Source: Candidatus Falkowbacteria bacterium
Lineage (GTDB): Bacteria > Patescibacteriota > Patescibacteriia > UBA11705
Length of the DNA: 64,000 nt
Direction of reading: 5' to 3'
Assembly: GCA_003518055.1 (NCBI GenBank)
Contig: DOZJ01000006.1
Span: forward strand, 43,837 to 107,836
Part shown: one piece after another, positions 19,467-62,110 of the stretch
How positions within the stretch are numbered: the stretch's first letter is position 1
Layout of the letters: every line of letters starts with the position of its first letter
Notes under the pieces: model-generated
Seen by the model: the letters and a program-made list of their open reading frames with translations, nothing else
Databases searched by the model: none
What the model was told of the DNA's origin: nothing
Position numbers and translations under genes: made by a program

Positions 19467-20297
19467 TCACAGAACGATTTTCATGCCTTTGATGGGCGGC
19501 ATGGGGGCGTATTGTTTTTCCAGTTTATCAACGATTTCATAGACCAGACTTTCATCACCTTGTTCCGCTCGGGCAAAATATTCCGGCTGGGCTTCGAAGT
19601 AAATCGGCGAGTGAGTGTTGTTCCGCTCAACCAATTCCCAAGCGTGTTCATAATGGATGTCGTAGATGTGCGCGTTGCTGATTGAGTGGGTTAATTTGCC
19701 GGGCTGGACGCCAAGCCGAGCGGCCAGAATACATTGGAGGAGAGCAAAGCCGGCCACATCATGAGGGCAGCCGAGCATCATATCATTGCTGCGAACAATG
19801 CTGTGTATATGGAGTTTGTTGCCGATAATGTTGGCGGTCCAGGTGTACGGGCAGGGGACATTTTTTTTGGTTTCCGGATTACCGAGTCCATCCTCGCGCG
19901 GATCCCAAGTAATTACAACTCCGTGGCGAGAGCCCGGGCTGTCTTCAAGATGTTTGATCAATAATCCCAGTTGATCGCGGCCAAAGGCGCTGCGCCACCG
20001 ATGGCCATAAGCGGCCGGAATGGTGCCGTCTTGTTCCGTAAAAGCATCCCAGATTTTGGTGAATTTGCCGACAAACTCATCGGGTTTTTGGCTGCCCATA
20101 ATATACCAAATTTGTTCAGCGACAAAAATTTTAATCGGAATTTTTCGCAGGGTTAACAATGGAAAACCTTGATCCAATTCAAAAGTCAATCCGGGAATGA
20201 TTTTGGTGCTATGGCCGGTTCTCTCATTATACTCCTCAAATCCCTGATTCATAATCCGGAGGATGGCGTCTTTGAATTGTTGGTCGAATTGAGTCAT
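19467..20297 (-). CDS. thyA: thymidylate synthase
   Basis: PLLT.RK, VPCPYTW (active-site Cys), HIHSIVRSNDMMLG.PHDV, ISNAHIY motifs. Confidence 0.85.
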   Translation of the reverse strand: MTQFDQQFKDAILRIMNQGFEEYNERTGHSTKIIPGLTFELDQGFPLLTLRKIPIKIFVAEQIWYIMGSQKPDEFVGKFTKIWDAFTEQDGTIPAAYGHRWRSAFGRDQLGLLIKHLEDSPGSRHGVVITWDPREDGLGNPETKKNVPCPYTWTANIIGNKLHIHSIVRSNDMMLGCPHDVAGFALLQCILAARLGVQPGKLTHSISNAHIYDIHYEHAWELVERNNTHSPIYFEAQPEYFARAEQGDESLVYEIVDKLEKQYAPMPPIKGMKIVL

Positions 20298-20303
20298 GAG
20301 GGG

Positions 20304-20342
20304 GAGAGATTGAGAGAATTAAGAGATTGAGAGAATTAAGAA
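20304..20342. repeat. microsatellite (GAGAGATTGAGAGAATTAA)x2 immediately upstream of thyA start
   Basis: direct inspection; related array at 61733-61787. Confidence 0.6.
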
Positions 20343-20520
20343 TAATCACTTAATCTCTAAATCAGCTTAATTTCTTTATTTCTTGTTTCTTCATTTTAGC
20401 AGATACAACCCAGCTGGCAAAATCGGGCTTGTGGATTGGAATTCTTTATAAATAAGACAAATTGACAACCATGTTTCTATGTGTTATTGTTTGCTGTTGC
20501 CACCAAAGGAGGGGAAGGAA

Positions 20521-20811
20521 ATGAAACAGGCATTGAAAGCTATTTTCCCATATATGTATAGTATGGGATATCAGGTAAATAATGGTGAGCCGTTTGAAGT
20601 TGAAGAACCGGTTTTGATTTTACAGTATGACGATGGTCTTCGATTGATGCTTAGAAAAAGCCAAAAAGGTGGTATGACGGTGGAAAAAATCGGCCGAGTG
20701 AAATTTGGCAAGCTGCGACGGAAGATTGAAGTTGAAGCGCCGGAATCCTTGTGGTTAATGGTTCGAGGATGGTTTGACGGTTCCTTTGAAATGTTTTTTC
20801 TTAGCGATTGA
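20521..20811 (+). CDS. hypothetical protein
   Basis: ORF with AAGGAGGGGAAGGAA RBS; no motif. Confidence 0.4.
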   Translation: MKQALKAIFPYMYSMGYQVNNGEPFEVEEPVLILQYDDGLRLMLRKSQKGGMTVEKIGRVKFGKLRRKIEVEAPESLWLMVRGWFDGSFEMFFLSD

Positions 20812-20867
20812 TTTTGGTGTCAAAAAATATCAGGGAAAGAGAGGCCACATGAAAGCCGTAACCGCGA

Positions 20868-21089
20868 GTGCTCATTTTACATCCAATACATGATCTTGGC
20901 AGAAAAGGAGAGTGGATTCAAGAAGAAGGGTTCAATGTGAGGTTTGAGGTCAAGAAACTGAAGCTCGTGGATTTTAAACAGTTTGAGGATATTCGTGAGG
21001 TGAATGTTCCTGCGTGGCTGTTTGAGATGGCCAAAGCCGCGGCAGAAGGATTCTTCGGAAGCATTGAGAAACAGTTGAAATTGGAATAA
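20868..21089 (+). CDS. hypothetical small protein
   Basis: 73-aa ORF followed by strong terminator. Confidence 0.3.
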   Translation: MLILHPIHDLGRKGEWIQEEGFNVRFEVKKLKLVDFKQFEDIREVNVPAWLFEMAKAAAEGFFGSIEKQLKLE

Positions 21090-23287: not shown

Positions 23288-23479
23288 TTAAACGACCAAG
23301 CTGAGCAGGTATTGGAACAGCAAGTCGAGGCCACCGAGAAAAACGGCGACGCCCACGGATACGCTGATGACAATCAAGGTGTACTTGGTGGTTTCCTTTT
23401 TGGTCGGCCAAGTAACTTTGGTCATTTCAACTTTTGCTTCTCGAAGATAATTGAACAAACGGTTGTTTAGTACATTCAT
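23288..23479 (-). CDS. secE: preprotein translocase subunit SecE
   Basis: 63 aa, REAKVEMTKVTWPTKKET then single TM; classic position upstream of nusG. Confidence 0.8.
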   Translation of the reverse strand: MNVLNNRLFNYLREAKVEMTKVTWPTKKETTKYTLIVISVSVGVAVFLGGLDLLFQYLLSLVV

Positions 23480-23683
23480 ATTAAATAGTATCCGCGTGAA
23501 CTAAATGTTCAGCGGAGAAGCAAAAATAACGAAAACCAATGGTTTTGTAATGTTATTTTTTGCTTAAAATTAGGGATAAAATTATCTTAAAAAGCCCCAA
23601 AGGGCTAGTTTCAATATAATTATAGCATAAAATTATTTTCCCGCAAGAGTAATGGATAAAAATTGGGGATTGACAATGTCGGA

Positions 23684-23754
23684 TAATTTTGGCATGCTAT
23701 AGGGTTCAGCTGATCAGGCGGGACAGACCCATGCAATACCAAGGAGGAAGCAAG
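23684..23754 (+). promoter_or_regulatory. conserved ~70-nt leader element, copy A (TTTTGGCATGCTATAGGGTTCAGCTGATCAGGCGGGACAGACCCATGCAA...AAGGAGGAAG)
   Basis: ~85% identical to copy B at 24981-25050 although downstream proteins are unrelated; contains palindrome CTGATCAG. Confidence 0.55.
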
Positions 23755-24426
23755 ATGAGCGAGAAAAAGGTGGCATTAATCATTGGCGGAACCAGTGATA
23801 TCGGACAAGCGATTATAAAAGTTTTGGAGGTTGAGTATCAGATTTATTTTACTTATTTCAGTAATGATGAATTGGCGAAGAGGACCTCGGGCGTGGGTAT
23901 GCATTGCGATATCCAGAACATCCGGTCGATTCGGATGGTGTTTCGACAGTTCCCTAAGCTGGATCTGATGGTTACTTGCGCTTTTCCCTTTATTGAAAAT
24001 GATGTTTTGGAGTTTTCGAGTTATTTGGAAACTGAGCCATATCTTCGTGGTCATGTGGTGGCGGTTTGCGAAGCCGCCAAGAAAATGAACAGCGGCGGCA
24101 AGGTAATCAATCTTCTCGGGCAATGTGTTGATCGAGGGTTGGCCGGTGCTCCGTATTATGCGGCCGCGTATGCATATCTGCGGAATTTGGCCATGAGTAT
24201 TAACGCGAGTCATGGGCGAGCGGGTAGACTGTCGGTTCACGATATTCTTCTCGGACCGGTAAATACAAAACTGTGGCGAGGCGTGAGTAAGGAAGTTATG
24301 ACTCGCTATCGCAATCTGGTGGCGCGATTTATCGAGCCAAGGGAAGTGGCAGAAGCGGTGCTTTATATTGCTCGGTCAGAAATCGGTCCGACAACATTTA
24401 AACTTGATGCTTTTTACAGTTTATAA
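23755..24426 (+). CDS. short-chain dehydrogenase/reductase family protein (atypical, YxxxR instead of YxxxK)
   Basis: ALIIGGTSDIGQAI Rossmann motif; ATG 23755 behind AAGGAGGAAG RBS. Confidence 0.6.
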   Translation: MSEKKVALIIGGTSDIGQAIIKVLEVEYQIYFTYFSNDELAKRTSGVGMHCDIQNIRSIRMVFRQFPKLDLMVTCAFPFIENDVLEFSSYLETEPYLRGHVVAVCEAAKKMNSGGKVINLLGQCVDRGLAGAPYYAAAYAYLRNLAMSINASHGRAGRLSVHDILLGPVNTKLWRGVSKEVMTRYRNLVARFIEPREVAEAVLYIARSEIGPTTFKLDAFYSL

Positions 24427-24452
24427 CACTACCAGAAACAGGGGGGAACAAA

Positions 24453-24944
24453 ATGAAAAAGAGAGTGGATTATACTAATGGCAAAGAGGTCGGGGCGGTT
24501 TTGGACAAAGATTCGGGTAAGCTCGGAGCAATTGAAAATTTGACGAGATTAAATGAAAAAGTTGTGGTCATGCTTGGGTGGTATGCAAAATTTCTTTGCT
24601 TTTGTTCGTATACGGTAGTGCAGAAAATGGTTGAATTTGCTCATGATGCAGAAAAGGATATCCCGTATATTCAGCTAGACTTGTTATTTGCATTTGAAGA
24701 ATTCCGCAGTCAAGAACCCATTTTAGCCTCATATACTCGTAGCGAATTATGTGATTGGGCAGGAGAGGAAAAGTTCGTTAATGATTTGACACAGGTATTA
24801 AACGAGAATTATTTGGCCGATACCAGATTTCGAGTGCGGGTAATCTCGTGGATTAATAATACTGGTGGTTTGCTGAGGGTAAGTATTACAAAATGGAACG
24901 CTGAATCGCCGCTGGATTATTTGTCGATTGGCAATGTTTTTTGA
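24453..24944 (+). CDS. hypothetical protein
   Basis: 163-aa ORF, GGGGAACAAA RBS-like, no motif. Confidence 0.4.
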   Translation: MKKRVDYTNGKEVGAVLDKDSGKLGAIENLTRLNEKVVVMLGWYAKFLCFCSYTVVQKMVEFAHDAEKDIPYIQLDLLFAFEEFRSQEPILASYTRSELCDWAGEEKFVNDLTQVLNENYLADTRFRVRVISWINNTGGLLRVSITKWNAESPLDYLSIGNVF

Positions 24945-24980
24945 AAATAGATAATGGATAAAAGTTGGAAATAAACAAGG

Positions 24981-25050
24981 CTGAATAATTTTGGCATAGT
25001 AAAGGGTTCAGCTGATCAGGCGGGGCAGACCCATACAACAACAGGGAGGA
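24981..25050 (+). promoter_or_regulatory. conserved ~70-nt leader element, copy B
   Basis: TTTTGGCATAGTAAAGGGTTCAGCTGATCAGGCGGGGCAGACCCATACAA...AGGGAGGA. Confidence 0.55.
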
Positions 25051-25425
25051 ATGATCGTGACTGAAAAGCGGTCAGAGGTGTTGAATGTGGCGGTAAAGAC
25101 TAAAGACGCGGATGGACGAGTTAGGTCGTCGAAAATTTTGGGTTTGATTATTTATGATGATCGGACGGTGCAAGTTTGTGCTCCGATGGCAAATGATTGG
25201 CGCGTCATTTTGGGATTGGTTGGTTTGGCTAGACGGTTGGAGGGGCGATTGTCAGAGTATTATCTTGAAAAAGGTGAAACACTGAATACCCGGATCGTGT
25301 TGGAGGAAATGAAGCTGGTTGTTCGATCGGTGATGGCTTTGAGTCTGTTTAGTCTGTACCGTTTACCTGATGATGGTACGGCTGAGTTGGTTTTTGGGTT
25401 AGCTGATTGGCCAAATTTGTTTTAG
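25051..25425 (+). CDS. hypothetical protein behind duplicated conserved leader
   Basis: 124-aa ORF, GGGAGGA RBS; C-terminal ADWPNLF. Confidence 0.4.
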   Translation: MIVTEKRSEVLNVAVKTKDADGRVRSSKILGLIIYDDRTVQVCAPMANDWRVILGLVGLARRLEGRLSEYYLEKGETLNTRIVLEEMKLVVRSVMALSLFSLYRLPDDGTAELVFGLADWPNLF

Positions 25426-25533
25426 GTTTGAATCAAGAAATCTAAACTGAGTGAACCAACTCAGTTTTTTGATCCTTGCGTCTTTGGTAAAAATAATTTA
25501 AGATAAATAATTCCCACCAAGGCGGAGGAATCA

Positions 25534-25914
25534 ATGTCTTATCGAGATGATAGTCAGCTGGTGACCATTGAAAATCAAAATAGAGTCTTGTTTGCCATAT
25601 ATGCGAAAAAGAATAAACGAAATCAGGCTGAAATCACTCATATTGAAATGGCGGAATTTGAATCGGTTGATTGGTTGACTTGGACATCTCTTACAGAATT
25701 TATTAATCGAGTGAAGTCGGCTTTGGAGACGCAGGTGGCGAGCGCAGATCTTAATTTGGCGCTTGTGGTTGATGATGTCCTTCGACGTGCAGGGTTGCAG
25801 TTTCGCGTGAAGCGAGAAAGTAACGGATACAATTCATTTAATTGCCGCAATGGTTCTTGGTGGAAGGTTTTTTATCCCAAAACAGGATCGGAGGATGCCA
25901 ATGAAAATGTTTGA
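25534..25914 (+). CDS. hypothetical protein (C-terminal NGSWWK)
   Basis: 126-aa ORF; GGCGGAGGAATCA RBS. Confidence 0.35.
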   Translation: MSYRDDSQLVTIENQNRVLFAIYAKKNKRNQAEITHIEMAEFESVDWLTWTSLTEFINRVKSALETQVASADLNLALVVDDVLRRAGLQFRVKRESNGYNSFNCRNGSWWKVFYPKTGSEDANENV

Positions 25915-26323
25915 TCATGAACGTGGCATTTATATTCACTATGGCCGGCCATATTGCGGCGCGTCCGGGGTATCGAAAATTGAAATCGCGGTTGATCTTG
26001 TGGCAAAAAAATTGAAAATCGTTAAGATTAATATGGAAGCTTGTAGTGATGAATGTCGATCGAGGGTGGATGCTTGGTTGGAAGAATTGGCGGTGGGGGT
26101 GGTTGATTGGAGATTTTCCGTGGTGGTTGAATCGCTTGTTCGGCGGTTGAAAGCGATTGAGGTGTATTTCAGCCATCAGTTTTGTACCTTGGGTAGTGTT
26201 TTGTATGTTAATGCGACAGACCGGACAGCTGAACCTGATGATGAACACGAATGTGTGATTATCCTCAATGATATGTTGAACGATCCCTGGTGGAAACGGC
26301 TGCCGGAAGGGGGTGATCAATGA
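25895..26323 (+). CDS. hypothetical Cys-rich protein with C-terminal HECVIILNDMLNDPWWKR motif
   Basis: start after GGAGG RBS; tandem paralog of next gene by shared C-terminus. Confidence 0.45.
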   Translation: MPMKMFDHERGIYIHYGRPYCGASGVSKIEIAVDLVAKKLKIVKINMEACSDECRSRVDAWLEELAVGVVDWRFSVVVESLVRRLKAIEVYFSHQFCTLGSVLYVNATDRTAEPDDEHECVIILNDMLNDPWWKRLPEGGDQ

Positions 26324-26751
26324 CACGGTGTGAAATTGTGATTTCATTTGGCGCTCAGGGCAAGCGGTTGGGGCAGGAGTTGTCGGTATTTGACTTTATC
26401 GTTACGCGCAGTGCGAAATTTTTCGTTGATGGAAATGGCTGGACATTTGTTGAACTTGACGCGAATACCGGCAGTCAAGATAGCCGCAAAGAGAATCAAC
26501 GGGCATTGGAAATTCTGGTGAGAAAGCTGAATGAAAAATTCGGAGTAAATCCCGATGTTGGATTTGAAAATTTGGTGAAGCAGATCTGTGAGGAGATTGA
26601 TGAACGGTTTAATCCGCGGGCGGTCTTCATGCCGAATGCGTGTCCGCCTTTGTTTTCGTCTCGCGTCACGCCGCCTGATAGATGTACGCATTGCCTGATC
26701 ATGCTTAGCGATACACTGGCTGACCCATGGTGGCGTCCGTGGGCTGAGTAA
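26320..26751 (+). CDS. hypothetical Cys-rich protein with C-terminal THCLIMLSDTLADPWWRPW motif
   Basis: start overlaps previous stop (ATGA); shared 15-aa C-terminal motif. Confidence 0.45.
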   Translation: MTRCEIVISFGAQGKRLGQELSVFDFIVTRSAKFFVDGNGWTFVELDANTGSQDSRKENQRALEILVRKLNEKFGVNPDVGFENLVKQICEEIDERFNPRAVFMPNACPPLFSSRVTPPDRCTHCLIMLSDTLADPWWRPWAE

Positions 26752-26755
26752 AATA

Positions 26756-26780
26756 AACTGCTTAAAAGAGCAGTTTTTTT
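26756..26780 (+). terminator. intrinsic terminator (AACTGCT-TAAAAG-AGCAGTT-T7)
   Basis: hand-folded. Confidence 0.65.
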
Positions 26781-26787
26781 GTTATAA

Positions 26788-26816
26788 TTGACAAAATTGG
26801 ATATTGCTGGTATTAT
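26788..26816 (+). promoter_or_regulatory. sigma70-type promoter TTGACA-17-TATTAT
   Basis: near-perfect consensus, downstream AGGAGG RBS. Confidence 0.6.
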
Positions 26817-26850
26817 TTGAAGTCAAAACCTCAAACAACTAGGAGGCGGC

Positions 26851-27417
26851 ATGAAACCGAATCGAGGTGAAAGAGTCTTGGCACTGGCGTATGAGCTTTG
26901 GAAGTTGATGAGTCGAGAGACGGATGTTTGGGCTGAGGCTATTTTTGATTGTGAGGAGCAGCTAGCTGTTTATTTGTCAGAGTGTCTGCATTTTCAAGAG
27001 TTTGGACCAAACGTGATTACGGCGGGCTGGAAGAAGGTGGCTCAGGATGCGGGCTCGAATTATCAAATCCCCGATGAGATTTATTGTGATCCTCGGTTGC
27101 AGAGCGCGCTGGATAGTGAGGCTTCGAATGATTTTTACAATATTACGGTGGTTGATATTGATGGCATCAAACGGATGTTCAACGGTGATATTCCTTTTTT
27201 GGCTATTCTTCCGCTTGATGATGAAATCATGACCAGCCTGTGGGGGCTTTATTCCGGGGCTGAAATGCATGATTGTCTATTGGCGGCTTTGACTGAGTTC
27301 AATAAAAAGAATTCGTGTCTCCGAATTGAATTTGCTGTTTTTCACGGAGAAATGGATGACCAAGGTTGTTTGATTCTGGCGTTCAATGATCAGGCTCGGT
27401 GGTTTTATAAGATTTGA
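26851..27417 (+). CDS. hypothetical protein
   Basis: 188 aa behind perfect promoter 26788-26816 and AGGAGG RBS; ends ARWFYKI. Confidence 0.45.
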   Translation: MKPNRGERVLALAYELWKLMSRETDVWAEAIFDCEEQLAVYLSECLHFQEFGPNVITAGWKKVAQDAGSNYQIPDEIYCDPRLQSALDSEASNDFYNITVVDIDGIKRMFNGDIPFLAILPLDDEIMTSLWGLYSGAEMHDCLLAALTEFNKKNSCLRIEFAVFHGEMDDQGCLILAFNDQARWFYKI

Positions 27418-27442
27418 GAAGACAAAAAGTCTTCTTTTTTTT
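27418..27442 (+). terminator. intrinsic terminator (GAAGAC-AAAAA-GTCTTC-T8)
   Basis: hand-folded. Confidence 0.65.
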
Positions 27443-27446
27443 ATAA

Positions 27447-27474
27447 CAAAACAGCAGGTTAAAACCTGCTGTTT
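27447..27474 (-). terminator. gyrB terminator (9-bp stem ACAGCAGGT/ACCTGCTGT, loop TAAA)
   Basis: hand-folded; T-run on minus strand. Confidence 0.55.
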
Positions 27475-27485
27475 GGATGTTTGGT

Positions 27486-29573
27486 TTAGATGTCGAGATT
27501 TTTCACAGTTTTGGCGTGCGTTTGGATAAAGCGTTTGCGGGGCGCAACTTCCGAGCCCATCAGGATGTCGAAAATTTGATCGGCTTTTTCGCCGTCTTCG
27601 ACGGTGACTTTTTTGAGCACGCGATTGGCCGGATCCATGGTGGTGTTCCAGAGCTGATCCGGATTCATTTCGCCGAGACCTTTGTAGCGCTGGATGTTGA
27701 CGCCTTTGAGCGCTTCATCATGAATTTCAATGTGTTCAACCACGGAGTCATCAGAAGTTTCGGTTTCCGGCTCAGTCTCGTCGGTTTCAACCGGTTTTTT
27801 GGCTGGTGTTTCGTCTTTGATTTTTTTGAATTTTTCCAGCACCTGCTCCAATTCTTCGTCAGAGTAAACATACTCGGCCACTTTGCCTTTTTTGACTTGG
27901 TAGAGAGGCGGTTGAGCAATGTATAGATTGCCATGGTAAATCAGTGGGCTGAAATATCGGAAGAATAAAGTTAATAGTAGGGTTCGAATGTGAGCGCCGT
28001 CAACGTCGGCATCAGTCATAATAATGACCTTGCCGTAGCGGAGGTTTTCAATGTTCATCTGCTCGCCAAAATTGGTGCCAAGAGCAATAATGAGCGATTT
28101 AACTTCATTGTTGGCCAACATTTTGTCGATGCGGGCTTTTTCAATGTTGATGATTTTACCTCGAAGCGGAAGGATGGCTTGAAATTCTCGGTTGCGGCCT
28201 TGTTTGGCTGAGCCGCCGGCCGAGTCGCCCTCGACGATATACAATTCACACTTGTCAGGTTCTCGTGATGAGCAGTCAGCCAGTTTACCGGGGAGAGATA
28301 AACTTTCGAGTACGCCTTTGCGCAGAACCGTATCACGGGCCGCTCGGGACGCTTTGCGGGCTTGGGCGGCGAGGAGCGATTTCCCGATGATGGCTTCGGC
28401 GTCTTTGGGGTGTTCTTCCAAAAATATTTCCAGCGATTCGGTTACCAGCTGGTCAACGACGGGTTTTACTTCGGCGTTGCCGAGTTTGGCTTTGGTTTGG
28501 CCTTCGAATTGAGGATCTTTGACTTTGATCGAGATGATTGACGTCAAACCCTCACGGACGTCGTCGCCGGAGAGATTTTCATCTTTTTCTTTGAGTAGAT
28601 TGTGTTTGCGTGCGTAGGAATTGAGCGTTCGGGTCAAGGCGGTGCGGAAACCGGCCACGTGCGTGCCGCCTTCGGGGTTGATGATATTGTTGGTGAAGGC
28701 GATGACGGTTTCAGTGAATTCTTGAATATAGCGAATGGCCACTTCGACTTGAATATCGTCGGCGGTTTTGTCAACATAAAAAATATTGTCATGGGCCGGT
28801 TTGTCTTGGCGGTTCAAATGACGAACATATGATCCAATACCGCCTTCGAAGAAGAACGAGAATTGTTTTCTGTTTTGGGGATCTCTCAGATCAAAAGCCA
28901 TAATCCGTATACCCTTGGTAAGATAGGCTTGCTGGCGCAAATAAGTTAAAACTTTGTCCCAGCTGAATTCAGTAACAGTGAAAATAGTTTTGTCAGGTAA
29001 AAATGATACCGAAGTTCCGTTGGTAAAAGATTCTTCCGGCGCCCATGGGTCGATTTTTTTCGGTTTAGTTACCGGTCCGACAAGTTTGACTTTTTTTTGC
29101 GGGATGCCGATGTGAAATTCCTGCTCATAAATATTGCCGTCGCGGCGGATGACGGCTCTGGTCCAAGTGGATAAAGCATTGACCACGGATACGCCGACAC
29201 CATGGAGGCCGCCGGAAACTTTGTAGCCGCCTTGACCGAATTTACCGCCGGCGTGAAGTTTGGTCATAACCGTTTCCAAGGCTGAAACGCCGGTCGCTTT
29301 GTGTTTTTCGACCGGAATGCCGCGGCCATTGTCAATGACCGTGACTGAATTGTCCGAATTGATTTTGACCACGATGTCAGTACAAAAACCGGCCATGGCT
29401 TCATCGATGGAATTGTTGACAACTTCCCAAATTAAATGGTGCAGACCTTCGCTTGCCGTATTGCCGATATACATACCGGGCCGTTTGCGCACCGGATCCA
29501 AACCTTCAAGTACGGTAATTTGTTCAGCGCCGTATTCGTCGGCGCCTTTTTGGACGGATTTTTTTGGTGACAT
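27486..29573 (-). CDS. gyrB: DNA gyrase subunit B (type IIA topoisomerase ATPase subunit)
   Basis: GHKL ATPase, EGDSAGG, PLRGKILN, acidic C-terminal insert then TOPRIM/tail. Confidence 0.8.
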   Translation of the reverse strand: MSPKKSVQKGADEYGAEQITVLEGLDPVRKRPGMYIGNTASEGLHHLIWEVVNNSIDEAMAGFCTDIVVKINSDNSVTVIDNGRGIPVEKHKATGVSALETVMTKLHAGGKFGQGGYKVSGGLHGVGVSVVNALSTWTRAVIRRDGNIYEQEFHIGIPQKKVKLVGPVTKPKKIDPWAPEESFTNGTSVSFLPDKTIFTVTEFSWDKVLTYLRQQAYLTKGIRIMAFDLRDPQNRKQFSFFFEGGIGSYVRHLNRQDKPAHDNIFYVDKTADDIQVEVAIRYIQEFTETVIAFTNNIINPEGGTHVAGFRTALTRTLNSYARKHNLLKEKDENLSGDDVREGLTSIISIKVKDPQFEGQTKAKLGNAEVKPVVDQLVTESLEIFLEEHPKDAEAIIGKSLLAAQARKASRAARDTVLRKGVLESLSLPGKLADCSSREPDKCELYIVEGDSAGGSAKQGRNREFQAILPLRGKIINIEKARIDKMLANNEVKSLIIALGTNFGEQMNIENLRYGKVIIMTDADVDGAHIRTLLLTLFFRYFSPLIYHGNLYIAQPPLYQVKKGKVAEYVYSDEELEQVLEKFKKIKDETPAKKPVETDETEPETETSDDSVVEHIEIHDEALKGVNIQRYKGLGEMNPDQLWNTTMDPANRVLKKVTVEDGEKADQIFDILMGSEVAPRKRFIQTHAKTVKNLDI

Positions 29574-43974: not shown

Positions 43975-44337
43975 AATTATTTCCTGTCCTTTAGGGCGGG
44001 GAGTCGAGCTCAGCACCCGGGCTACTGCCTGCGCTGAAGCTTCGGCAGTCAAGAAAGCCGCGGGGAAGGGTGAATTTTCCCTGTCCTTTAGGGCGGGAAG
44101 CCGAGTTCAGTACCCGGGCTGAAGCCACGGGGAAGGGTGAATTTTCCCTGTCCTTTAGGGCGGGGAGTCGAGTTCAGCACCCGGGCTACTGCCTGCGCTG
44201 AAGCTTCGGCAGTCAAGAAAGCCGCGGGGAAGGGTGAATTTTCCCTGTCCTTTAGGGCGGGAAGTCGAGCTCAGTACCCGGGCTACTGCCTGCGCTGAAG
44301 CTTTGTCAGTCAAGAAAGCCGCGGGGAAGAGATTATT
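43975..44337. repeat. tandem array, 4 copies of ~100-bp GC-rich unit (one copy with ~33-bp internal deletion) in prfA-prmC intergenic region
   Basis: unit GAATTTTCCCTGTCCTTTAGGGCGGGGAGTCGAGCTCAGCACCCGGGCTACTGCCTGCGCTGAAGCTTCGGCAGTCAAGAAAGCCGCGGGGAAGGGT repeated head-to-tail. Confidence 0.85.
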
Positions 44338-44349
44338 ACCGGTTGATAT

Positions 44350-45411
44350 TTATTTTTCTTGCAGGCTAGTTTTCTCGGCGGCGGTTTTGAGGGCGGTGAT
44401 GATCGGTTCAATCTGGCCGTCCAGAATTATCGGGATGTTGTTCCAGCTTTCTTTGATGCGGTGGTCGGTGATGCGATCCTGAGGGAAATTATAGGTGCGG
44501 ATTTTTTCGCTGCGATCACCGGTGCCGATTTGAGATTTGCGGGCGGCGCCTAATTCTTTTTGGCGTTTTTCTTCCTGCAATTCAAATAGCCGCGTGCGCA
44601 GAACTTTCATGGCTTTGTCTTTGTTTTGAAGTTGAGAGCGTTCATCTTGGCATTGCACCACGAGACCGGAGGGTTCATGCGTAATGCGTACGGCGGATTT
44701 GGTGGTGTTTACGCTCTGGCCACCGTGGCCGCCGGCGCAAAAGGTGTCGATGCGCAGATCCTGAGGATCGATTTTGACATCGACGTCTTCGGCTTCAGGC
44801 AGTACCGCGACAGTCACGGTTGACGTGTGGACTCGGCCTTGTTTTTCCGTTTCCGGCACGCGTTGGACTCGATGGACGCCGCTCTCATATTTTAAATGGC
44901 TAAAAACTTTGTGACCGTTGATTTCAAAGATAATTTCCTTGAACCCGCCGATGCCGATTTGGTTTGAAGACAAGATAACCAATTTCCAGCCTTGGATTTC
45001 GGCGTAGCGGGAATACATTCGAAACAATTCAGCGGCAAACAACGCTGATTCATCGCCACCAGCGCCGGCGCGGATTTCCACGATGACATTTTTGGCGTCG
45101 CGGGGATCTTTGGGCAGGAGGGCGGATTTGATTTCGGCTTGGAGGGATTCGATTTTCGGCGTTAACTCATTGATTTCTTGTTCGGCTAATTCGATTAAAT
45201 CAGGGTCATCAGCTTCGAGGGTTTTTTCAGCGTCAACTAGGGCCGCTTGATATTTTTCAAGCAGAACAATTTGATCATAAGTGGGTTTGAGCTCAGCATG
45301 TTCGGTGGATACGGTGCGTAGTTTGGCTGGATCAGAAAGAACTTCGGTGGATTGAAGCTGAGTTTCCAGATTGAGAAATTTTTCTTTGAGTTGTTGGGTT
45401 TGGTTGGTCAT
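44350..45411 (-). CDS. prfA: peptide chain release factor 1
   Basis: [19 protein letters not shown] tripeptide (PxT), RF1-type. Confidence 0.9.
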
Positions 45412-45490
45412 GTAATACTAATTTACGAATAATACGAATATTACGAAAACATCACGGGATTGTTACGAATTTACGAATTACGAAAACATG
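45412..45490 (-). promoter_or_regulatory. TTCGTAA x6 array 5' of prfA (no SD)
   Basis: minus-sense TTCGTAATTCGTAAATTCGTAACAATCCCGTGATGTTTTCGTAATATTCGTATTATTCGTAAATTAGTATTAC-ATG. Confidence 0.55.
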
Positions 45491-45523
45491 AAAGCGAGAA
45501 AGTGATGTCGTCTAAAGCATAAC

Positions 45524-45560
45524 AAAAAACCAGCTGAAAAGATAGACGGGAATCAGCTGG
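45524..45560 (-). terminator. rpmE terminator (CCAGCTGA/TCAGCTGG stem, long loop, T-run on minus strand)
   Basis: hand-folded. Confidence 0.45.
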
Positions 45561-45572
45561 CTATATGAGTAG

Positions 45573-45857
45573 TTATTTGTCAGCAGTCGCTTTTTTGACT
45601 TTGCCTTTGGCTTGAAGTTTGGTGCGTTTGCTGCGATTTTTGTCCTTTTTTTCCGCGGATTTGGCCATGCGGGCTTTGAAGCGGTCAACCACACCGGCGG
45701 TATCTACCAATTTTTGTTGGCCGGTATAGAAAGGATGACACATATGACAAAGTTCGATATCGATTTTTTCTTTTGATGAGCCAACGACAAATTCATTACC
45801 GCAGGCGCAGGTAATTTTTGCTTGGTGGTGATATTTCGGGTGAAGATCGGTTTTCAT
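45573..45857 (-). CDS. rpmE: 50S ribosomal protein L31 (with Lys-rich C-terminal extension)
   Basis: MKTDLHPKYH...CxCG...CHMCHPFYTG zinc-ribbon L31. Confidence 0.85.
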   Translation of the reverse strand: MKTDLHPKYHHQAKITCACGNEFVVGSSKEKIDIELCHMCHPFYTGQQKLVDTAGVVDRFKARMAKSAEKKDKNRSKRTKLQAKGKVKKATADK

Positions 45858-46113
45858 AAAGATAAAATGAATGACACGGAACTAAAAGATGGAAACATTT
45901 TAGTCCGATAAATCAATAAGATTAAGTAAATTAACTGAAATAAAGTGTAGCACGAGACAAGAAATTTTGCAAGCGTGCGGTGGGTGATTTGGGGGTATTT
46001 TTCTTAATTTAGCCCAAAAATATGGGGGTGTGTGGATTCTTGGTTGGAGCTGGGGGATAAAGATTGTATAATATAAGGAAGAGACAACTAACAAATAAAC
46101 ATAGGAGAACATT

Positions 46114-46473
46114 ATGAAAGGAAAATTATTGCTCAAAGGAGCGGTTTGGGGAATCATTCTTGGGACCATCGGCGGTTATTTGTTTAACGCGAAAACCGGC
46201 AAGCAAAATCGGGGCAAATTGAAAACCGCGGCGGCGAAATTGGGAAAGCGATTGACTTCGGAATTGGATCAAGTGTCTGATGTAACGAAAAAGCATTATG
46301 ATGCCATGGTGAATAAAGTGGTTGATGATTTGAAAAAAGACAAGACGATGAGCCGTGAAGCGTGGGATGAAATTTCTAAAGAATTGAAAAGCCGATGGGC
46401 GATGGTGAATTCGGAAGTAAAAAGCGCGGTCGCGACCAAGGTTAAGAAATCAACGACAAAAAAGAAAAAATAA
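46114..46473 (+). CDS. YtxH-like small membrane-associated protein
   Basis: N-terminal GAVWGIILGTIGGYLFNAKTG helix then Lys-rich coiled region. Confidence 0.45.
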   Translation: MKGKLLLKGAVWGIILGTIGGYLFNAKTGKQNRGKLKTAAAKLGKRLTSELDQVSDVTKKHYDAMVNKVVDDLKKDKTMSREAWDEISKELKSRWAMVNSEVKSAVATKVKKSTTKKKK

Positions 46474-46537
46474 ATCCAATGACATTCCTTGGCTTTTGGC
46501 CGAGGATTTTGTTTGTTAGTGTTTTTTGAGAGCAAGT

Positions 46538-47341
46538 ATGAATTTTTTGCATAAATATATTCCGGAGCCAATAATATTTTCACTCGGTCCGATTGAAATC
46601 CATTGGTATGGATTGTTGATGGTGCTTGGCGGTTTGGCCGGGTTGTTTTTCGTTCGCAAATTATTTCAATTGTATCGGCTCAAGGAAAAAGATCTGACTG
46701 ATTTGGTTTTGGTCTGGGTACTGTTTGCTTTGATCGGAGCGAGGATCTATTACGTGATTTACGCTTGGGATTATTACCGAGAAAATTTGATTGACATAAT
46801 TAAGGTTTGGGAGGGCGGGCTGGCGGTTCACGGAGTGATGCTCGGTGTTTTTGGGGCGACTTATTGGTTTTGCCGGTGGAGAAAAATAAATTTTTGGCTG
46901 ATGGCTGATATTGCAGCGGTTGGTTTGGCCGGCGCCCAGATCATTGGCCGCTGGGGTAATTATTTTAATCAAGAAATTTTTGGTAAACCAACAGATTTGT
47001 CGTGGGGCATACCGATTGAAATGAAATTCCGCCCCAGCCAGTTTCGAGAACAAAATTATTTTCATCCAACGGTGTTGTATGAAAGTTTACTTAGTGCGGT
47101 GAATTTTATAATTTTGTGGGCGGCTCATCAATGGCGGGTGAAACGAAATAAATATTTGCCTGAGGGAGTAATTTTTGCGGTGTATATATTCATTTATTCA
47201 GTGATTCGGTTCGGGCTGGAATATTACCGCGTTGATTATAGTCCGATGGTGTTTGGACTGCGCTGGGCTCAACTATTGAGTATTTGGCTCGCAATGGCGG
47301 CGATTATTTTTGTGATGTATTTGTATAAAAAGAAAAAGTAA
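46538..47341 (+). CDS. lgt: prolipoprotein diacylglyceryl transferase
   Basis: IHWYGLLMVLG, GARIYYVIY, GRWGNYFNQE(I)FG signature. Confidence 0.85.
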   Translation: MNFLHKYIPEPIIFSLGPIEIHWYGLLMVLGGLAGLFFVRKLFQLYRLKEKDLTDLVLVWVLFALIGARIYYVIYAWDYYRENLIDIIKVWEGGLAVHGVMLGVFGATYWFCRWRKINFWLMADIAAVGLAGAQIIGRWGNYFNQEIFGKPTDLSWGIPIEMKFRPSQFREQNYFHPTVLYESLLSAVNFIILWAAHQWRVKRNKYLPEGVIFAVYIFIYSVIRFGLEYYRVDYSPMVFGLRWAQLLSIWLAMAAIIFVMYLYKKKK

Positions 47342-47443
47342 AAAAATGTTGACCAAATTGGGGATAAGCGGTTCGGTTTTGTAGCAAAATTTGGTATAAT
47401 AAGTGCAACTTAGTTTGATCAAAAGTTTACAGCCAAAGATATT

Positions 47444-50400
47444 ATGGTGAAGATGAAAAAAAGGTTGGTGATATTAACCGGAATATTATTTATTTTTGTT
47501 TTTGGCGTAAGCTTTTTTTTAATTGATCGGACGGAGGCGTTGGTAACAAATGGCGCGAACGCGGTCAATCTGGTTGGACAGTATAGTGACGCGGGTGCGG
47601 TTGATTATACAAAGTCGGGAATCAATAATGGTCCGAATAATGAGGGGGTGAACACGCCGAATTTTTCGATTTTGGATGAACAAAATGATATATTTTTTGT
47701 TATTGATCAGGCGAATAATCGAGTGCTCGGTTATCAAGTGGATGCGGGGAATAATTTTGTTGATTATCAAGCCGATTATGTTCTCGGTCAGACGGATTTT
47801 AGCTCGGCGGATGAAGCAGATTCAGCCACGCAAGCAAATTTTTCCAATCCGAGCGGCTTGGCGATCGATCAGGGTGGCAGTAGGTTATTCGTGGCTGACG
47901 CCGGATTTAATCGAATTTTGATTTTTAATACTGACAGCATCGCGACCAACATGAATGCCAGTTTTGTTTTGGGGCAGGCTAATTTTACCGCGTCTGAGGC
48001 GGCTACGACGCAGGCCGGTTTGAGTTCACCGGAAGGGATTCATTTTGATGAAACTGATAACTTGTTGTATGTCGCGGATAAGAGCAATAACCGCGTTTTG
48101 ATTTACAGCGTGGCGGTCGGGACGGTTTCTAATGGTATGACTGCGTCGTATGTTTTGGGGCAGGCTAATTTTGTAAGTTCAGGGGCAGCGACTACTGCGG
48201 TGGGCTTGTCTGGTCCGACTGATGTTGATTACGCGAGTGATAATGATCATTTGTTTATCGCTGATGAAGGTAATAACCGAGTGATTATTCATAGTATTAC
48301 TCTGGAAGCTCCAATTGCTGACGGCCGGACGGCTGACAAGGTGTTTGGCCAGAGCAATTTTACATCTGGTGGCACTGGTAATGGGGCGGATCAGTTCAGT
48401 TCGCCATTTAGTGTGGCGGTTGATATTGCGAATGATCGGTTGTTTGTGACTGATCATGGTAACACGAGAATTCAATCTTTTGAGATTGCCACGATTGACA
48501 ACACGGAGAACGCGGCTGCTTCTTTGACTAGCATGACATCAAAAGCTCTGTTTTACATGGGTGTCAATGAATCGTTGGTGGTTGGTGAGCTTGAAGAACA
48601 TCGGGTGGCGAGGTATGACGCGGTGGTTTTGACACCGGGAGAATCGCCGGTAGAGGTTATTGGTCGAGTTGATGGCAGCGGCGATGATATTATTTCGGCT
48701 GATAATAACGCTAACAACGGCGCGAATAAATTGGGTTTGAGTGTTATTGGTGGAAGCGCGATTGATACCACCAATCATAGATTATTTGTCAGCGACACCA
48801 GTCATGATCGAGTTTTGGTTTATAATTTGACCGCTGGTGATATTTTGGCTGATTATACGCCGGATAATATTTTGGGCAAGACGGATTTTTATGACGCCAG
48901 CCAGACTGTTGTGACAGGATTGAATCCAGAGCAAAAAATTACTCAGCCCGGAGCTTTGGTTTATGAACAAGATACAAATTATTTATATGTGGCTGATAAT
49001 CGGCGGATTTTAGTCTTTAACGCGGCCAGTATTACTGACGGCGAGGCGGCGATAAATGTTTTGTGTCAAACCGCGTTCGCGAATATGGTTGACTCAACGG
49101 GGCAGGCTGAATGTTCGTCAGTCTCGGGTTTGGCCATAGATGAAACCAATAATCGATTGTTTGCTTCAGACGCCAGTGTCAGCCGCGTGATGGTTTTTGA
49201 CGTGGCGGAAATCGTTGATGGTGAAAACGCCACATATGTTTTGGGTCAGGGGCATTTCGGTGGTAGCGGAGTGGCTACGACTCAAGCAGGTTTGTCGGCG
49301 CCGAAAGGGTTGGCGTATGATTCAACGCAGGAGTATTTATTTGCCGCTGACAGCGGCAATAACCGAGTTGTTGTATATGATGTGGATACGATTTCCAATG
49401 GCGAAGACGCAGCCGCGGTTTTGGGGCAGGTTAACTATACTTCGTCCGGGGCTGATACGGATCGTAATTCTTTGAGTAATCCTTCGGCCGTTAGTGTCGA
49501 TACTAGCAATGGGCTGCTTCATGTGGCTGATACCACTAATAATCGGGTATTGTTTTTTGATGTTAATACTATTGCCAATGGTGAGTCGGCTCAATATGTT
49601 TTGGGCCAAAGTGGTTTTACAACCGCTACGGCCGCGACCACCCGGGCCGGTTTGAATACGCCGACAACGATTACTTTTAACTCTGGTTCGGATCGGATTT
49701 TGGTTGGAGATTCAGTCAATTATCGGATTATGGCGTTTGACGCGTCAATGACGACGAATAATGATCCAGCAACTCCGACTTTGAGCTCTCCGGCTGATTC
49801 AGCTGCCAGTGTGGCGATCAGACCGACGTGGCAGTTCTCGGCCACCGACGCTGATTCTGACGCCTTGTATTATGAATTGGAATTATCGGATACTACGACA
49901 TTTTATAATGTATTGTATCGGTTTGATTTGCGTGAAGATTATAAAGGATGGTCTCAGGTGTCAGCGTATGATTCTGGGGCTAGCGCGTCATTTATTCTGC
50001 CGGTCGGGGCAGCGCTTTCAACCAACACGACTTATTACTGGCGAGTGAGGGTGATTGACGTTCAGGGCGGCGTGTCGAGCTACAGCTCAGTGCGCAGTTT
50101 TACCACGGTGGATAATAGTACCACGGTTGATTACGCGGACACATTTGACAGCTCGGCTTATTTGGATACAACGAATACTACCGCGAAATATTATGATAAG
50201 GAAAATATTTCTATCCCCGCCACCTTTACTATAGGTTCGGCCGCAGCTATGTTCGGGGCGGGGGAAACAGTCGCGATGGTGGCTTTTGACGCGGATAATG
50301 ACGGTGATATCGATGTGGCGGTAAAAAATGAAGCTGGCACTACTAGTACCGTTTATATGAATAACGGCTCCGGAGTTTTTAGCGGCGGTGATACGCTCAA

Positions 50401-61706: not shown

Positions 61707-61732
61707 CTGGGCAGGCGTTTTGAAAAAGATAG

Positions 61733-61787
61733 TGAGAGAGAATTGAGAGATTGAGAGAATTGAGAGATTGAGAGAAGTAAGAGAATT
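61733..61787. repeat. microsatellite ATTGAGAGA x ~6 in the long leader between promoter 61678-61706 and tRNA-Asp
   Basis: direct inspection. Confidence 0.6.
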
Positions 61788-61849: not shown

Positions 61850-62110
61850 TTTGGATTTATGCGCCATAGGACGCATCCCTGCCTACCGGCAGGCAGGTGT
61901 CCTTTGGCAGAGAATTTAAAATTTAATGTGGATCGGTGGTGTAGTTGGTTAACACACCTCCCTGTCACGGAGGAGATCACGGGTTCGAGTCCCGTCCGGT
62001 CCGCCAGCCTACGCTCTTACTGCGTAGAGCTTCGGCTGGCGAGCCAAAGTTAGCGATTCATTTTACTTTGTAGAGCTTCGTCTGCCTGCCGGCAGGCAGG
62101 GTTGGAAAGT
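61850..62110. repeat. GC-rich dispersed repeat copies flanking tRNA-Asp (palindromes at 61878-61897 and 62081-62100; CTACGCTCTTACTGCGTAGAGCTTCGG at 62010-62036)
   Basis: same family as 1800-2050, 35762-35905. Confidence 0.65.
61930..62006 (+). tRNA. tRNA-Asp (anticodon GTC), CCA encoded
   Basis: hand-folded cloverleaf: acceptor GGATCGG/CCGGTCC, anticodon arm CCTCC-CTGTCAC-GGAGG, T-arm ACGGGTTCGAGTCCCGT, discriminator G + CCA. Confidence 0.85.

What the first reader, a model, noticed from the sequence alone, without database searches (positions are those of the whole stretch)
23689..27450. Accessory island of seven small hypothetical genes inserted between secE-nusG-rplKA and gyrB
Candidate for an undescribed functional module.

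Directly after the secE promoter region, a 3.8-kb plus-strand block interrupts otherwise housekeeping context. It contains an atypical SDR (YxxxR), six hypothetical proteins of 120-190 aa (none with signal peptides, several Cys-rich) and two copies of the conserved leader.

The block has its own perfect promoters and terminators. No transposase is present.

The combination of co-regulated small proteins with a shared C-terminal motif and a dedicated oxidoreductase makes this a candidate toxin/immunity-like cassette or small biosynthetic cassette.
Basis: inference. Interest (0 to 1): 0.6.

Follow-up and report, generated by a model that had tools for sequence, protein, structure and literature searches.

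The report
Fast-evolving orphan-gene islet in Falkowbacteria
A real 3.8-kb block of seven small genes sits inside an otherwise conserved gyrB-secE gene junction of a groundwater Candidatus Falkowbacteria genome; three of its genes belong to families found only at this spot in three sister species, nothing supports the proposed toxin/immunity or biosynthetic role, and its function remains unknown.

Summary
Seven plus-strand genes with native codon usage, strong ribosome-binding sites, three terminators and a duplicated 100-nt leader lie between secE and gyrB.

In 55 of 80 related Patescibacteria loci, gyrB, secE, nusG, rplK and rplA lie on one strand. In 25 of those the gyrB-secE gap is under 300 nt, so the block is an insertion at a conserved junction.

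The block is composite.
- **Older core (E, F, G):** E and F are full-length paralogues with a C-terminal D..WW tail. G is an acidic 188-aa protein. Both families recur at the same junction in two sister Falkowbacteria species, at 23-41% identity, while flanking genes are 59-93% identical.
- **Species-specific front (A, B, C):** A is a rare SDR-like protein in which Gly and Tyr replace the catalytic Ser and Lys. B and C are orphans. The two leader copies drive A-B and C.
- **D:** found in this species only, possibly related to the sister gene t110.

B-G match no Pfam, NCBIfam, PADLOC, PHROG, PDB or viral family. A full HMMER search of 1.84 billion proteins found the E/F family in these three species only. 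There is no toxin, integrase or biosynthetic core, and the leader matches no Rfam family.

Function is unknown. My low-confidence guess is conflict-related binding or immunity-like proteins. Interest is modest.

The parts
23288..23479 (-). secE, left flank of the islet (conserved core gene)
   Evidence: ORF. SecE Pfam call on the same gene (L003). 70% and 59% identical in the sister species.
23593..23606 (-). Terminator-like hairpin with a T-run on the minus strand, in the conserved region upstream of secE. It marks the old gyrB|secE intergenic DNA.
   Evidence: Sequence. Conserved in all three species.
23650..23754 (+). Leader copy 1: promoter-like region (TTGACA at 23670), C/A-rich 5' UTR containing the palindrome CTGATCAG, and a GGAGG ribosome-binding site ending at the ATG of gene A
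   Evidence: No Rfam match. Fold z-score +0.2 to +0.4.
23755..24426 (+). Gene A: divergent SDR-like NAD(P)-binding protein, 223 aa. It keeps GGTSDIG and Y135; the catalytic Ser is Gly122 and the Lys is Tyr139.
   Evidence: Pfam adh_short_C2 4e-11. Family alignment. FabG alignment. Only five orthologue clusters among 5.8 billion proteins.
24453..24944 (+). Gene B: 163-aa orphan, co-transcribed with A (26-nt gap, no terminator between them)
   Evidence: (no homologue)
24952..25056 (+). Leader copy 2, in register with copy 1 up to the start codon (the GTG at 25057 corresponds to the ATG at 23755)
25057..25425 (+). Gene C: 122-aa orphan (124 aa if the ATG at 25051 is used)
25444..25470 (+). Intrinsic terminator after C
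25534..25914 (+). Gene D: 126-aa orphan ending ...FNCRNGSWWK. It may be the counterpart of L107 t110, which ends ...FNADWWK.
   Evidence: hhalign P about 0.02-0.06, weak
25901..26323 (+). Gene E: 140 aa (142 aa from 25895), the E-type member of the E/F 'WW-tail' family. Its start overlaps the end of D.
26320..26751 (+). Gene F: 143 aa, the F-type member of the E/F family. It overlaps E's stop by ATGA. Conserved C-terminus CxxC..D..PWW.
26755..26780 (+). Intrinsic terminator after F
26788..26816 (+). Near-consensus sigma-70 promoter for G (TTGACA-17-TATTAT with TG)
26851..27417 (+). Gene G: 188 aa, acidic (net charge -16). The family has two copies in sister species L103.
27416..27442 (+). Intrinsic terminator after G. 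It is followed by the gyrB terminator hairpin at 27450-27473, which belongs to the minus strand.
27486..29573 (-). gyrB, right flank of the islet (conserved core gene)

Best explanation
The block is a genuine accessory locus restricted to a small clade. It belongs to a groundwater Candidatus Falkowbacteria (CPR/Patescibacteria) genome and occupies the ancestral gyrB-secE-nusG-rplK-rplA junction.

**It is composite.**
1. An older core is shared, at this same junction, with two sister species. It consists of a translationally coupled pair of paralogous ~140-aa alpha/beta proteins (E and F, the 'WW-tail' family) and an acidic ~180-aa family (G). D, the gene directly upstream of E, is seen in this species only and may be a third, very divergent E/F-family member.
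2. A front module is found in this species only. It holds a rare, divergent SDR-like NAD(P)-binding protein lacking the catalytic Ser and Lys (A) and two orphans (B, C). Two copies of one 100-nt promoter/5'-UTR cassette drive A-B and C.

**Shown:**
- The genes are real.
- The site is an insertion point.
- The E/F and G families are conserved in position and diverge far faster than their neighbours.
- Nothing in public protein, structure, RNA, phage or plasmid collections resembles B-G.

**Inferred, with low confidence:**
- The products are soluble cytoplasmic proteins.
- E and F act together as a heteromer.
- The fast-evolving core serves an interaction with another organism or a virus, as binding, neutralising or immunity-like proteins, rather than metabolism.
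- The SDR-like protein is an NAD(P)(H)-binding accessory brought in separately.
- The duplicated leader is a promoter/operator cassette that co-regulates A-B and C.

The confidence of 0.45 is for the statement as a whole. The descriptive part would rate about 0.85 and the functional inference about 0.2.
For: **The genes are real.** Every gene has a ribosome-binding site. Codon-usage log-odds are positive only in frame. There are three terminators.

**The block is an insertion.** In 55 of 80 NusG-anchored Patescibacteria loci, gyrB is followed by secE on the same strand. In 25 of these the gap is under 300 nt. A-G give no hit in any of the 80 loci.

**A core is shared at the same site.** A profile of E plus F against 1.84 billion representative proteins finds only E, F, P0012 and P0013. 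P0012 and P0013 both lie between secE and gyrB in sister species.
- L103 has an E-like gene, an F-like gene (41% identical) and two G-like genes (31-32%).
- L107 has an E-like domain and an F-like gene (31%).
- E-type and F-type proteins are homologous along their whole length (hhalign 95.8%, 143 columns).

**The islet proteins diverge fast.** Flanking proteins are 59-93% identical between the species, against 23-41% for E, F and G.

**The front module is found in this species only.** A, B, C and the leader are absent from both sister loci. B and F have no other homologue among 5.8 billion proteins.

**The SDR family is rare and sporadic.** Its few members lie next to NrtR, NadE or phage-like runs of small genes.
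Against: - Nothing bears directly on function. There are no domain hits.
- The only usable structure model (F, pLDDT 66, pTM 0.60) has no significant structural neighbour. The model of E was useless (pLDDT 35).
- Fast divergence could reflect relaxed constraint rather than conflict. No population variation was available to test selection, because all contigs of each species are identical.
- In other Patescibacteria the same junction holds ordinary metabolic and envelope genes, so the site itself is not a defence or conflict hotspot.
- B, C and D have no homologues, so their reality rests only on ribosome-binding sites and codon usage.
- The E-F heteromer and the operator role of the leader are untested.
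Confidence: 0.45

Rival explanations
1. Toxin-immunity or toxin-antitoxin cassette. One or more small proteins are toxic and their neighbours neutralise them, or the array is a set of orphan immunity genes against toxins delivered by competitors.
For: - The genes are small, cytoplasmic, tandem and partly paralogous, with overlapping or coupled ORFs.
- The proteins diverge very fast.
- G is strongly acidic.
- One sub-threshold hint: the 588-aa protein of the sister islet touches PoNi_C (PoNe immunity) at E=0.089, below the cut-off.
Against: - Pfam, NCBIfam, PADLOC and PHROGs contain no toxin, antitoxin or immunity family matching any of the 7 window proteins or the 9 sister-islet proteins.
- No secretion-linked toxin gene (LXG, Rhs, CdiA, WXG) lies in or next to the islet.
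- E and F are homologous to each other, unlike a toxin-antidote pair.
- None of the proteins has a recognisable DNA-binding antitoxin domain.
Confidence: 0.15
2. Small biosynthetic or redox cassette built around a dedicated oxidoreductase (A), with the small proteins as accessory or carrier components.
For: - A is an SDR-fold protein with an intact nucleotide-binding motif.
- The A family has many invariant polar residues, which suggests a conserved, possibly non-canonical, active site.
- F-type proteins keep a CxxC.
Against: - In the whole A family the catalytic Ser is Gly and the Lys is Tyr or Phe.
- A is missing from both sister islets.
- Elsewhere A occurs without any B-G relative.
- There is no other enzyme, transporter, precursor peptide or carrier-protein domain.
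Confidence: 0.05
3. Decayed remnant or cargo of a mobile element or prophage that integrated at the gyrB|secE junction.
For: - The block is absent from most relatives.
- Relatives of A lie in phage-like runs of tiny genes (L096, L098, L092).
- The genes run opposite to the flanking genes.
Against: - There is no integrase, transposase, tRNA or flanking direct repeat.
- Composition and codon usage are native.
- The DNA has no match in 50,697 phage or 72,556 plasmid records.
- E/F, G and the SDR have no relative in IMG/VR contigs. The single G188 hit was a chance seed match.
- The core has been vertically retained at one site in three species whose GyrB is 79-84% identical to the window's.
Confidence: 0.1
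4. Clade-specific accessory factors of the neighbouring housekeeping machinery (gyrase, NusG/SecE, ribosomal L11/L1) that evolve quickly. The location would then be functional rather than accidental.
For: - The core is kept exactly between gyrB and secE in three species.
- G is very acidic, as are some DNA-mimic gyrase modulators (the comparison rests on my own knowledge).
Against: - Transcription is opposite to both neighbours, from the islet's own promoters and terminators.
- Other lineages fill the same gap with unrelated ordinary genes or with nothing.
- There is no similarity to GyrI, YacG, Qnr/MfpA or any other known modulator.
Confidence: 0.1
5. The duplicated leader is a structured cis-regulatory RNA (a riboswitch-like element) that senses a ligand, for example an NAD-related one, and controls A-B and C.
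For: - Two copies lie in register with the start codons of two unrelated genes and share a 31-nt stretch with one difference.
- Relatives of A are linked to NAD genes.
Against: - No Rfam family matches, even at E<=10.
- Predicted folding is no better than shuffled sequence, with z from -0.7 to +1.6.
- There is no anti-RBS segment and no leader terminator (read directly).
- The clustering of identical positions is not significant (P about 0.1-0.2).
- No further copy exists in the window, in 110 loci or in viral contigs, so covariation cannot be tested.
Confidence: 0.08

Closest known systems
Species-variable islets of orphan genes between conserved core genes (insertion-prone junctions)
   Same: - The block sits in a junction that is conserved across the phylum.
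- It is absent from most relatives.
- Gene content turns over even between sister species.
- It has no mobility genes.
- The same gap holds other cargo in other lineages.
   Different: - Part of the cargo (the E/F and G families) has been retained at the same site through speciation while diverging to 23-41% identity.
- These families occur nowhere else in 1.84 billion representative proteins.
Tandem arrays of immunity proteins in polymorphic-toxin loci
   Same: - The proteins are small and soluble, partly paralogous, tandem and fast-diverging.
- One member is strongly acidic.
   Different: - There is no adjacent toxin gene.
- Nothing matches any Pfam immunity (Imm or SUKH) family.
- There are no secretion-system markers.
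Classical SDR oxidoreductases such as FabG (best PDB matches 6wpr and 6t60), for gene A only
   Same: - Rossmann-type GGxSDIG motif.
- Full-length alignment to FabG.
- The catalytic Tyr is kept.
- Pfam adh_short_C2 scores above its cut-off.
   Different: - The catalytic Ser is replaced by an invariant Gly.
- The Lys is replaced by Tyr or Phe throughout the family.
- Only about seven members are known, scattered in CPR-like, low-GC and phage-like contigs next to NrtR, NadE or Lrp-type genes.
Type II toxin-antitoxin operons
   Same: Two small adjacent ORFs (E and F) overlap by ATGA.
   Different: - E and F are homologous to each other.
- Neither carries a toxin or antitoxin domain.
- They form part of a three-gene unit, D-E-F.

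Membership tests
Short-chain dehydrogenase/reductase (classical SDR), gene A | Family profile match above the curated cut-off, with an N-terminal glycine-rich nucleotide-binding motif | tested here: met
   PF13561 scores 43.4 bits against a cut-off of 27, and PF00106 scores 33.2 against 26.6. GGTSDIG is invariant as GGxSDIG in the family.
Short-chain dehydrogenase/reductase (classical SDR), gene A | Catalytic Ser-Tyr-Lys (YxxxK) residues | tested here: not met
   In the alignment to FabG 6wpr, the Ser position is Gly122 (invariant), the Tyr is Y135 (kept) and the Lys position is Tyr139 (Tyr or Phe in all six family members).
Type II toxin-antitoxin or polymorphic-toxin immunity cassette | At least one protein matching a known toxin, antitoxin or immunity family | tested here: not met
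   Pfam, NCBIfam, PADLOC and PHROGs give nothing below E=0.01 for B-G or for the sister-islet proteins. The best hint, PoNi_C at E=0.089, falls below the cut-off.
Type II toxin-antitoxin or polymorphic-toxin immunity cassette | Toxicity of one component that is neutralised by its neighbour | not testable with these tools
   This needs expression experiments.
Mobile genomic island or prophage remnant | Integrase or transposase, a tRNA or att site with flanking direct repeats, and foreign base composition | tested here: not met
   No such domains were found. The nearest tRNA is at 61930. No flanking direct repeats exist. GC content and codon usage are native. Phage, plasmid and IMG/VR collections give no match.
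Known anti-phage defence systems (PADLOC) | A match to a model of a defence-system protein | tested here: not met
   The window proteins give no hit. The only sister-islet hit is REase_II at E=0.0022 and 14.6 bits, over 60 residues of a 585-position model, which I judge to be noise.
Biosynthetic gene cluster | Core biosynthetic enzymes, a precursor or carrier protein, and a transporter | tested here: not met
   Only the non-canonical SDR is enzyme-like, and it is not conserved with the core genes.
Riboswitch or other described cis-regulatory RNA (the leader) | A match to a curated covariance model, or a thermodynamically unusual and covarying structure | tested here: not met
   Rfam 15 gives nothing at gathering threshold or at E<=10. 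Fold z-scores range from -0.7 to +1.6. Covariation cannot be tested with two near-identical copies.
Insertion at a conserved core-gene junction (accessory islet) | The flanking genes are adjacent in relatives and the cargo is absent from them | tested here: met
   gyrB is followed by secE on the same strand in 55 of 80 loci, and in 25 of them the gap is under 300 nt. A-G give no hit in any of the 80 loci.

The most novel reading that the evidence does not exclude
The E/F 'WW-tail' pair and the acidic G family would be components of a previously unseen conflict module confined to a small clade of Candidatus Falkowbacteria. They would act as neutralising or immunity-like proteins, or as factors for interaction with a host or a phage, and would have folds not yet represented in structure databases. 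The module has been kept at one chromosomal site while diversifying rapidly. In this species it would have recruited an NAD(P)-binding SDR-like sensor module under a duplicated operator.
Probability: 0.15. Interest if true: 0.6.

Novelty: new member of a known kind. Interest (0 to 1): 0.3.

Why it matters
CPR/Patescibacteria genomes are small and thought to belong to organisms that live on other cells. A large share of their genes has no known function. This locus gives a clean, well-delimited example: a junction conserved across the phylum, where one small clade keeps a set of proteins that diverge several times faster than their neighbours and exist nowhere else in about 15 billion public protein sequences.

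If these proteins mediate interaction with hosts, competitors or phages, they would be a handle on the lifestyle of an uncultured lineage.

The rare SDR-like family, which lacks the catalytic Ser and Lys and recurs next to NAD-regulation and NAD-synthesis genes, is a separate small lead.

As it stands, this is a descriptive result about orphan genes. No mechanism has been discovered.

Tried and rejected
- **Family searches.** Pfam, NCBIfam, PADLOC and PHROGs gave nothing for B-G or for the sister-islet proteins.
- **Word-index homology searches.** F and B matched only themselves.
- **PDB profile searches.** The E/F and G alignments gave nothing below E=0.02.
- **Structure prediction.**
  - E with E+F gave pLDDT 35 and was unusable.
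  - F with four sequences gave pLDDT 66.
  - Foldseek of the F model against PDB and BFVD gave best E values of 0.04 and 0.14 with TM-scores of 0.33 or less. Several RNase-H-like and GNAT folds appear among the weak hits, but none is meaningful.
- **One superfamily for B-G.** This was not supported. Only E and F are significantly related, by single-sequence or three-species profile hhalign. The C-terminal regular expression that also matches C and G was built after the fact, and the Trp is missing in G's orthologues.
- **G188 hit in a viral contig (L102).** It was seeded by an exact 8-residue word picked from millions of contigs, and identity outside the seed is about 23%. I rejected it as chance.
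- **Leader.**
  - It matches no Rfam family and has no unusual fold.
  - No further copy exists in the window, the loci or viral contigs.
  - The apparent conserved core is not statistically distinct from the rest of the repeat.
  - The NrtR-type palindrome next to an SDR orthologue (L089) does not resemble the leader, and the window encodes no NrtR.
- **Selection test.** All contigs of each species are 100% identical apart from one nonsynonymous SNP in G, so no test from polymorphism was possible.
- **Inverted similarity.** The secE-upstream region and the D promoter region are 73-79% complementary and AT-rich. I did not treat this as evidence of an element boundary.
- **Literature.** Searches for NrtR with SDR, and for Falkowbacteria, found nothing relevant.

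Full report
**1. What is there**

Seven plus-strand ORFs lie between secE (23288-23479, minus strand) and gyrB (27486-29573, minus strand):

| Gene | Coordinates | Size |
|---|---|---|
| A | 23755-24426 | 223 aa |
| B | 24453-24944 | 163 aa |
| C | 25057-25425 | 122 aa (124 aa from the ATG at 25051) |
| D | 25534-25914 | 126 aa |
| E | 25901-26323 | 140 aa (142 aa from 25895) |
| F | 26320-26751 | 143 aa |
| G | 26851-27417 | 188 aa |

- Each gene has GGAGG or GGGGG 5-8 nt before its start.
- A codon-usage log-odds score trained on 23 long genes of the window is positive for all seven in the annotated frame (0.05-0.17). It is negative in all five other frames. Training genes score 0.18 +/- 0.055, and spurious overlapping ORFs average -0.016.
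- GC content and the G-rich coding-strand skew match those of other plus-strand genes.
- Hairpins followed by T-runs come after C (25444-25470), F (26755-26780) and G (27416-27442).
- One promoter is near-consensus: 26788-26816, TTGACA-17-TATTAT with TG. The other candidates are ordinary. The number of promoter-like hits (11) does not exceed that in shuffled sequence (8.5 +/- 2.9).

The anatomy is four transcription units: leader-A-B, leader-C, D-E-F and G. E overlaps the end of D, and F overlaps the stop codon of E by ATGA.

**2. Source**

The proteins are annotated 'TPA: hypothetical protein DF272_05400 to DF272_05425 [Candidatus Falkowbacteria bacterium]'. The same DNA occurs, 100% identical, in several groundwater assemblies, including a 353-kb contig.

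**3. The block is an insertion in a conserved junction**

- A NusG-anchored scan of one genome per species returned 80 Patescibacteria loci.
- In 55 of them gyrB lies upstream of secE-nusG-rplK-rplA on the same strand.
- The gyrB-secE gap ranges from 30 nt to 6.3 kb, and 25 gaps are under 300 nt.
- None of A-G has a tblastn hit in any of these loci.
- Where other lineages have a longer gap, it holds unrelated and mostly ordinary genes: a GT2 glycosyltransferase, a TPR membrane protein, an ABC-2 transporter, peptidase M3, an FGGY kinase, and HD, CoA-binding and PGA_cap proteins.

The junction is therefore a recurrent insertion point, but it is not a dedicated defence hotspot.

**4. Sister islets show that the block is composite**

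A profile of E plus F, searched by full HMMER against 1.84 billion representative proteins, found only four proteins: F, E, P0012 (E=2.7e-16) and P0013 (E=5.6e-4). Both new proteins are encoded between secE and gyrB in syntenic contigs of two sister species. P0013 comes from Candidatus Falkowbacteria RIFOXYA2_FULL_35_8 and related bins.

| Species | Islet genes, in order |
|---|---|
| L103 | s145; s144a (E-like); s144b (F-like, 41% identical to F); s588; s185 and s178 (both G-like, 31-32%) |
| L107 | t110 (ends FNADWWK); t253 (N-terminal 146 aa E-like); t144 (F-like, 31%) |

- Profiles of the E-type and F-type proteins align over 143 columns with 95.8% probability. E and F are therefore full-length paralogues, and their order E then F is kept in all three species.
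- A, B, C and the leader are absent from both sister loci. D has no significant match there, although t110 shares its C-terminal FN..WWK (hhalign P about 0.02-0.06).
- Flanking proteins are 67-93% identical to L103 and 59-88% identical to L107. One flanking protein, H330, falls outside the L107 range at 37%. Examples for L103/L107: NusG 93/84, GyrB 84/79, ThyA 88/88.
- E, F and G are only 23-41% identical.

The core is old, fixed in position and diverging several times faster than its neighbourhood. The front module is found in this species only.

**5. Gene A**

- Pfam adh_short_C2 matches at 4e-11.
- Only five orthologue clusters (43-55% identity) exist among 5.8 billion proteins. Two further loci were found in JGI metagenomes.
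- The family alignment has many invariant residues, including GGxSDIG, AFPFIE, LRxH, LGQ and Y135.
- Aligned to FabG (6wpr), the catalytic Ser corresponds to invariant Gly122. The Lys corresponds to Tyr139, which is Tyr or Phe in every member.
R143 is not conserved either.
- The orthologues sit in varied contexts. None has a B-G relative or the leader:
  - divergent from NrtR (L089, and the P0006 contig);
  - upstream of NadE in a contig that also carries an ADP-ribosylglycohydrolase (L092/P0007);
  - within runs of tiny phage-like genes (L096, L098);
  - next to Lrp/AsnC-type regulators (L097, L099).

The link to NAD metabolism is a lead, not a result.

**6. Genes B-G**

- No family library matches them. 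The same holds for the sister-islet proteins.
- PDB profile searches are empty.
- IMG/VR holds no relative. The one G188 hit was a chance seed match.
- The islet DNA has no match among phage or plasmid records.
- AlphaFold2 of F with four sequences gave pLDDT 66 and pTM 0.60. The predicted order of elements is three strands, two helices and two strands.
- Foldseek of that model against PDB and BFVD found nothing significant.
- Conserved features of the E/F family are an invariant Asp and WW near the C-terminus. F-type proteins add CxxC.
- G is strongly acidic, with a net charge of -16. Its family keeps an N-terminal MxxNR...CLxxQEFG.
- A wider 'single superfamily' covering B-G is not supported.

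**7. The leader**

- The two copies, 23650-23749 and 24952-25051, are 83% identical. They are in register with the start codons of A and C, and they are the only copies in the window.
- No Rfam family matches.
- Predicted folding is no better than that of shuffled sequence.
- There is no anti-RBS segment and no leader terminator (read directly).
- The clustering of identical positions is not significant.
- The leader contains the 8-bp palindrome CTGATCAG just downstream of a TG-extended -10-like element.

The simplest reading is a duplicated promoter, operator and 5'-UTR cassette that co-regulates A-B and C. An RNA element cannot be excluded.

**8. Interpretation**

The structural and evolutionary description above is well supported. 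Function is not.

- The toxin/immunity reading has only generic support: small, tandem, fast-evolving proteins, one of them acidic. It fails every membership test I could run.
- The biosynthetic reading is weak. The only enzyme-like gene lacks canonical catalytic residues and does not travel with the core.
- A mobile-element origin lacks every hallmark.

My best guess, at low confidence, is that E, F, G and perhaps D are soluble interaction proteins in some biotic conflict or host relationship. E and F would act together. The SDR-like module would have been added later in this species. Relaxed constraint on dispensable genes remains a serious alternative for the fast divergence.

**9. Verdict**

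- The claim of an accessory island is correct.
- The functional interpretation is unsupported.
- The kind of thing is familiar: an orphan-gene islet at an insertion-prone junction of a CPR genome.
- The modest new points are the retention of the very narrow E/F and G families at one site, and the atypical SDR family.

Noticed in passing
window 20479-21089 (+): A second slot of orphan genes lies between thyA and rplA (ORFs of 110 and 73 aa). The sister species carry unrelated ORFs at the same position: L103 5786-6265 (159 aa) and L107 5725-6069 (114 aa). Two further window-species ORFs seen on locus L001 (15769-16281, 170 aa; 19687-20013, 108 aa) also have no sister counterpart.
   Followed up: partly
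window 20304-20341 and 61728-61782: An AG-rich tandem repeat with a 17-nt period (GAGAGATTGAGAGAATTRA) occurs at two distant sites. One lies directly upstream of the thyA start, where it reads as a CU-rich leader on the minus strand. The other lies upstream of the only tRNA gene.
   Followed up: no
window 1828, 7383, 35851, 61869, 62072: Five dispersed copies of a GC-rich perfect palindrome (CCTGCCTGCCGGCAGGCAGG and near variants). Two of them flank the tRNA at 61930-62003, so the element resembles a REP or a terminator.
   Followed up: no
window 23573-23662 versus 25467-25515: The conserved region upstream of secE and the region upstream of D are 73-79% complementary in inverted orientation, so the similarity brackets the species-specific A-B-C module. 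The sequence is AT-rich. The match may be chance or convergence between promoters.
   Followed up: partly
window 23593-23606 (minus strand); L103 and L107 equivalents: A terminator-like hairpin with a T-run lies about 110 nt upstream of the secE start and is conserved in all three species. It could be the old gyrB terminator or an attenuator in the secE-nusG leader. secE has no obvious Shine-Dalgarno sequence.
   Followed up: no
L089 9129-10675; P0006 contig; L092 3503-6323: The rare SDR-like family lacking the catalytic Ser and Lys recurs next to NAD-related genes. These are an NrtR regulator with a TAGTGT-N7-ACACTA palindrome in the shared intergenic region, and glutamine-dependent NAD synthetase, with an ADP-ribosylglycohydrolase elsewhere on the same contig.
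   Followed up: partly
window 43980-55046: Long internally repeated coding regions: units of about 141 and 180 nt, and repeated DNDGD-type motifs (GATAATGACGGTGAT...). They suggest very large repeat-domain surface proteins.
   Followed up: no
L103 10517-12283: The sister islet carries a 588-aa orphan protein that the window lacks. Its only matches are sub-threshold: DUF7086 at E=0.007 and the PoNe-immunity C-terminal domain at E=0.089.
   Followed up: partly
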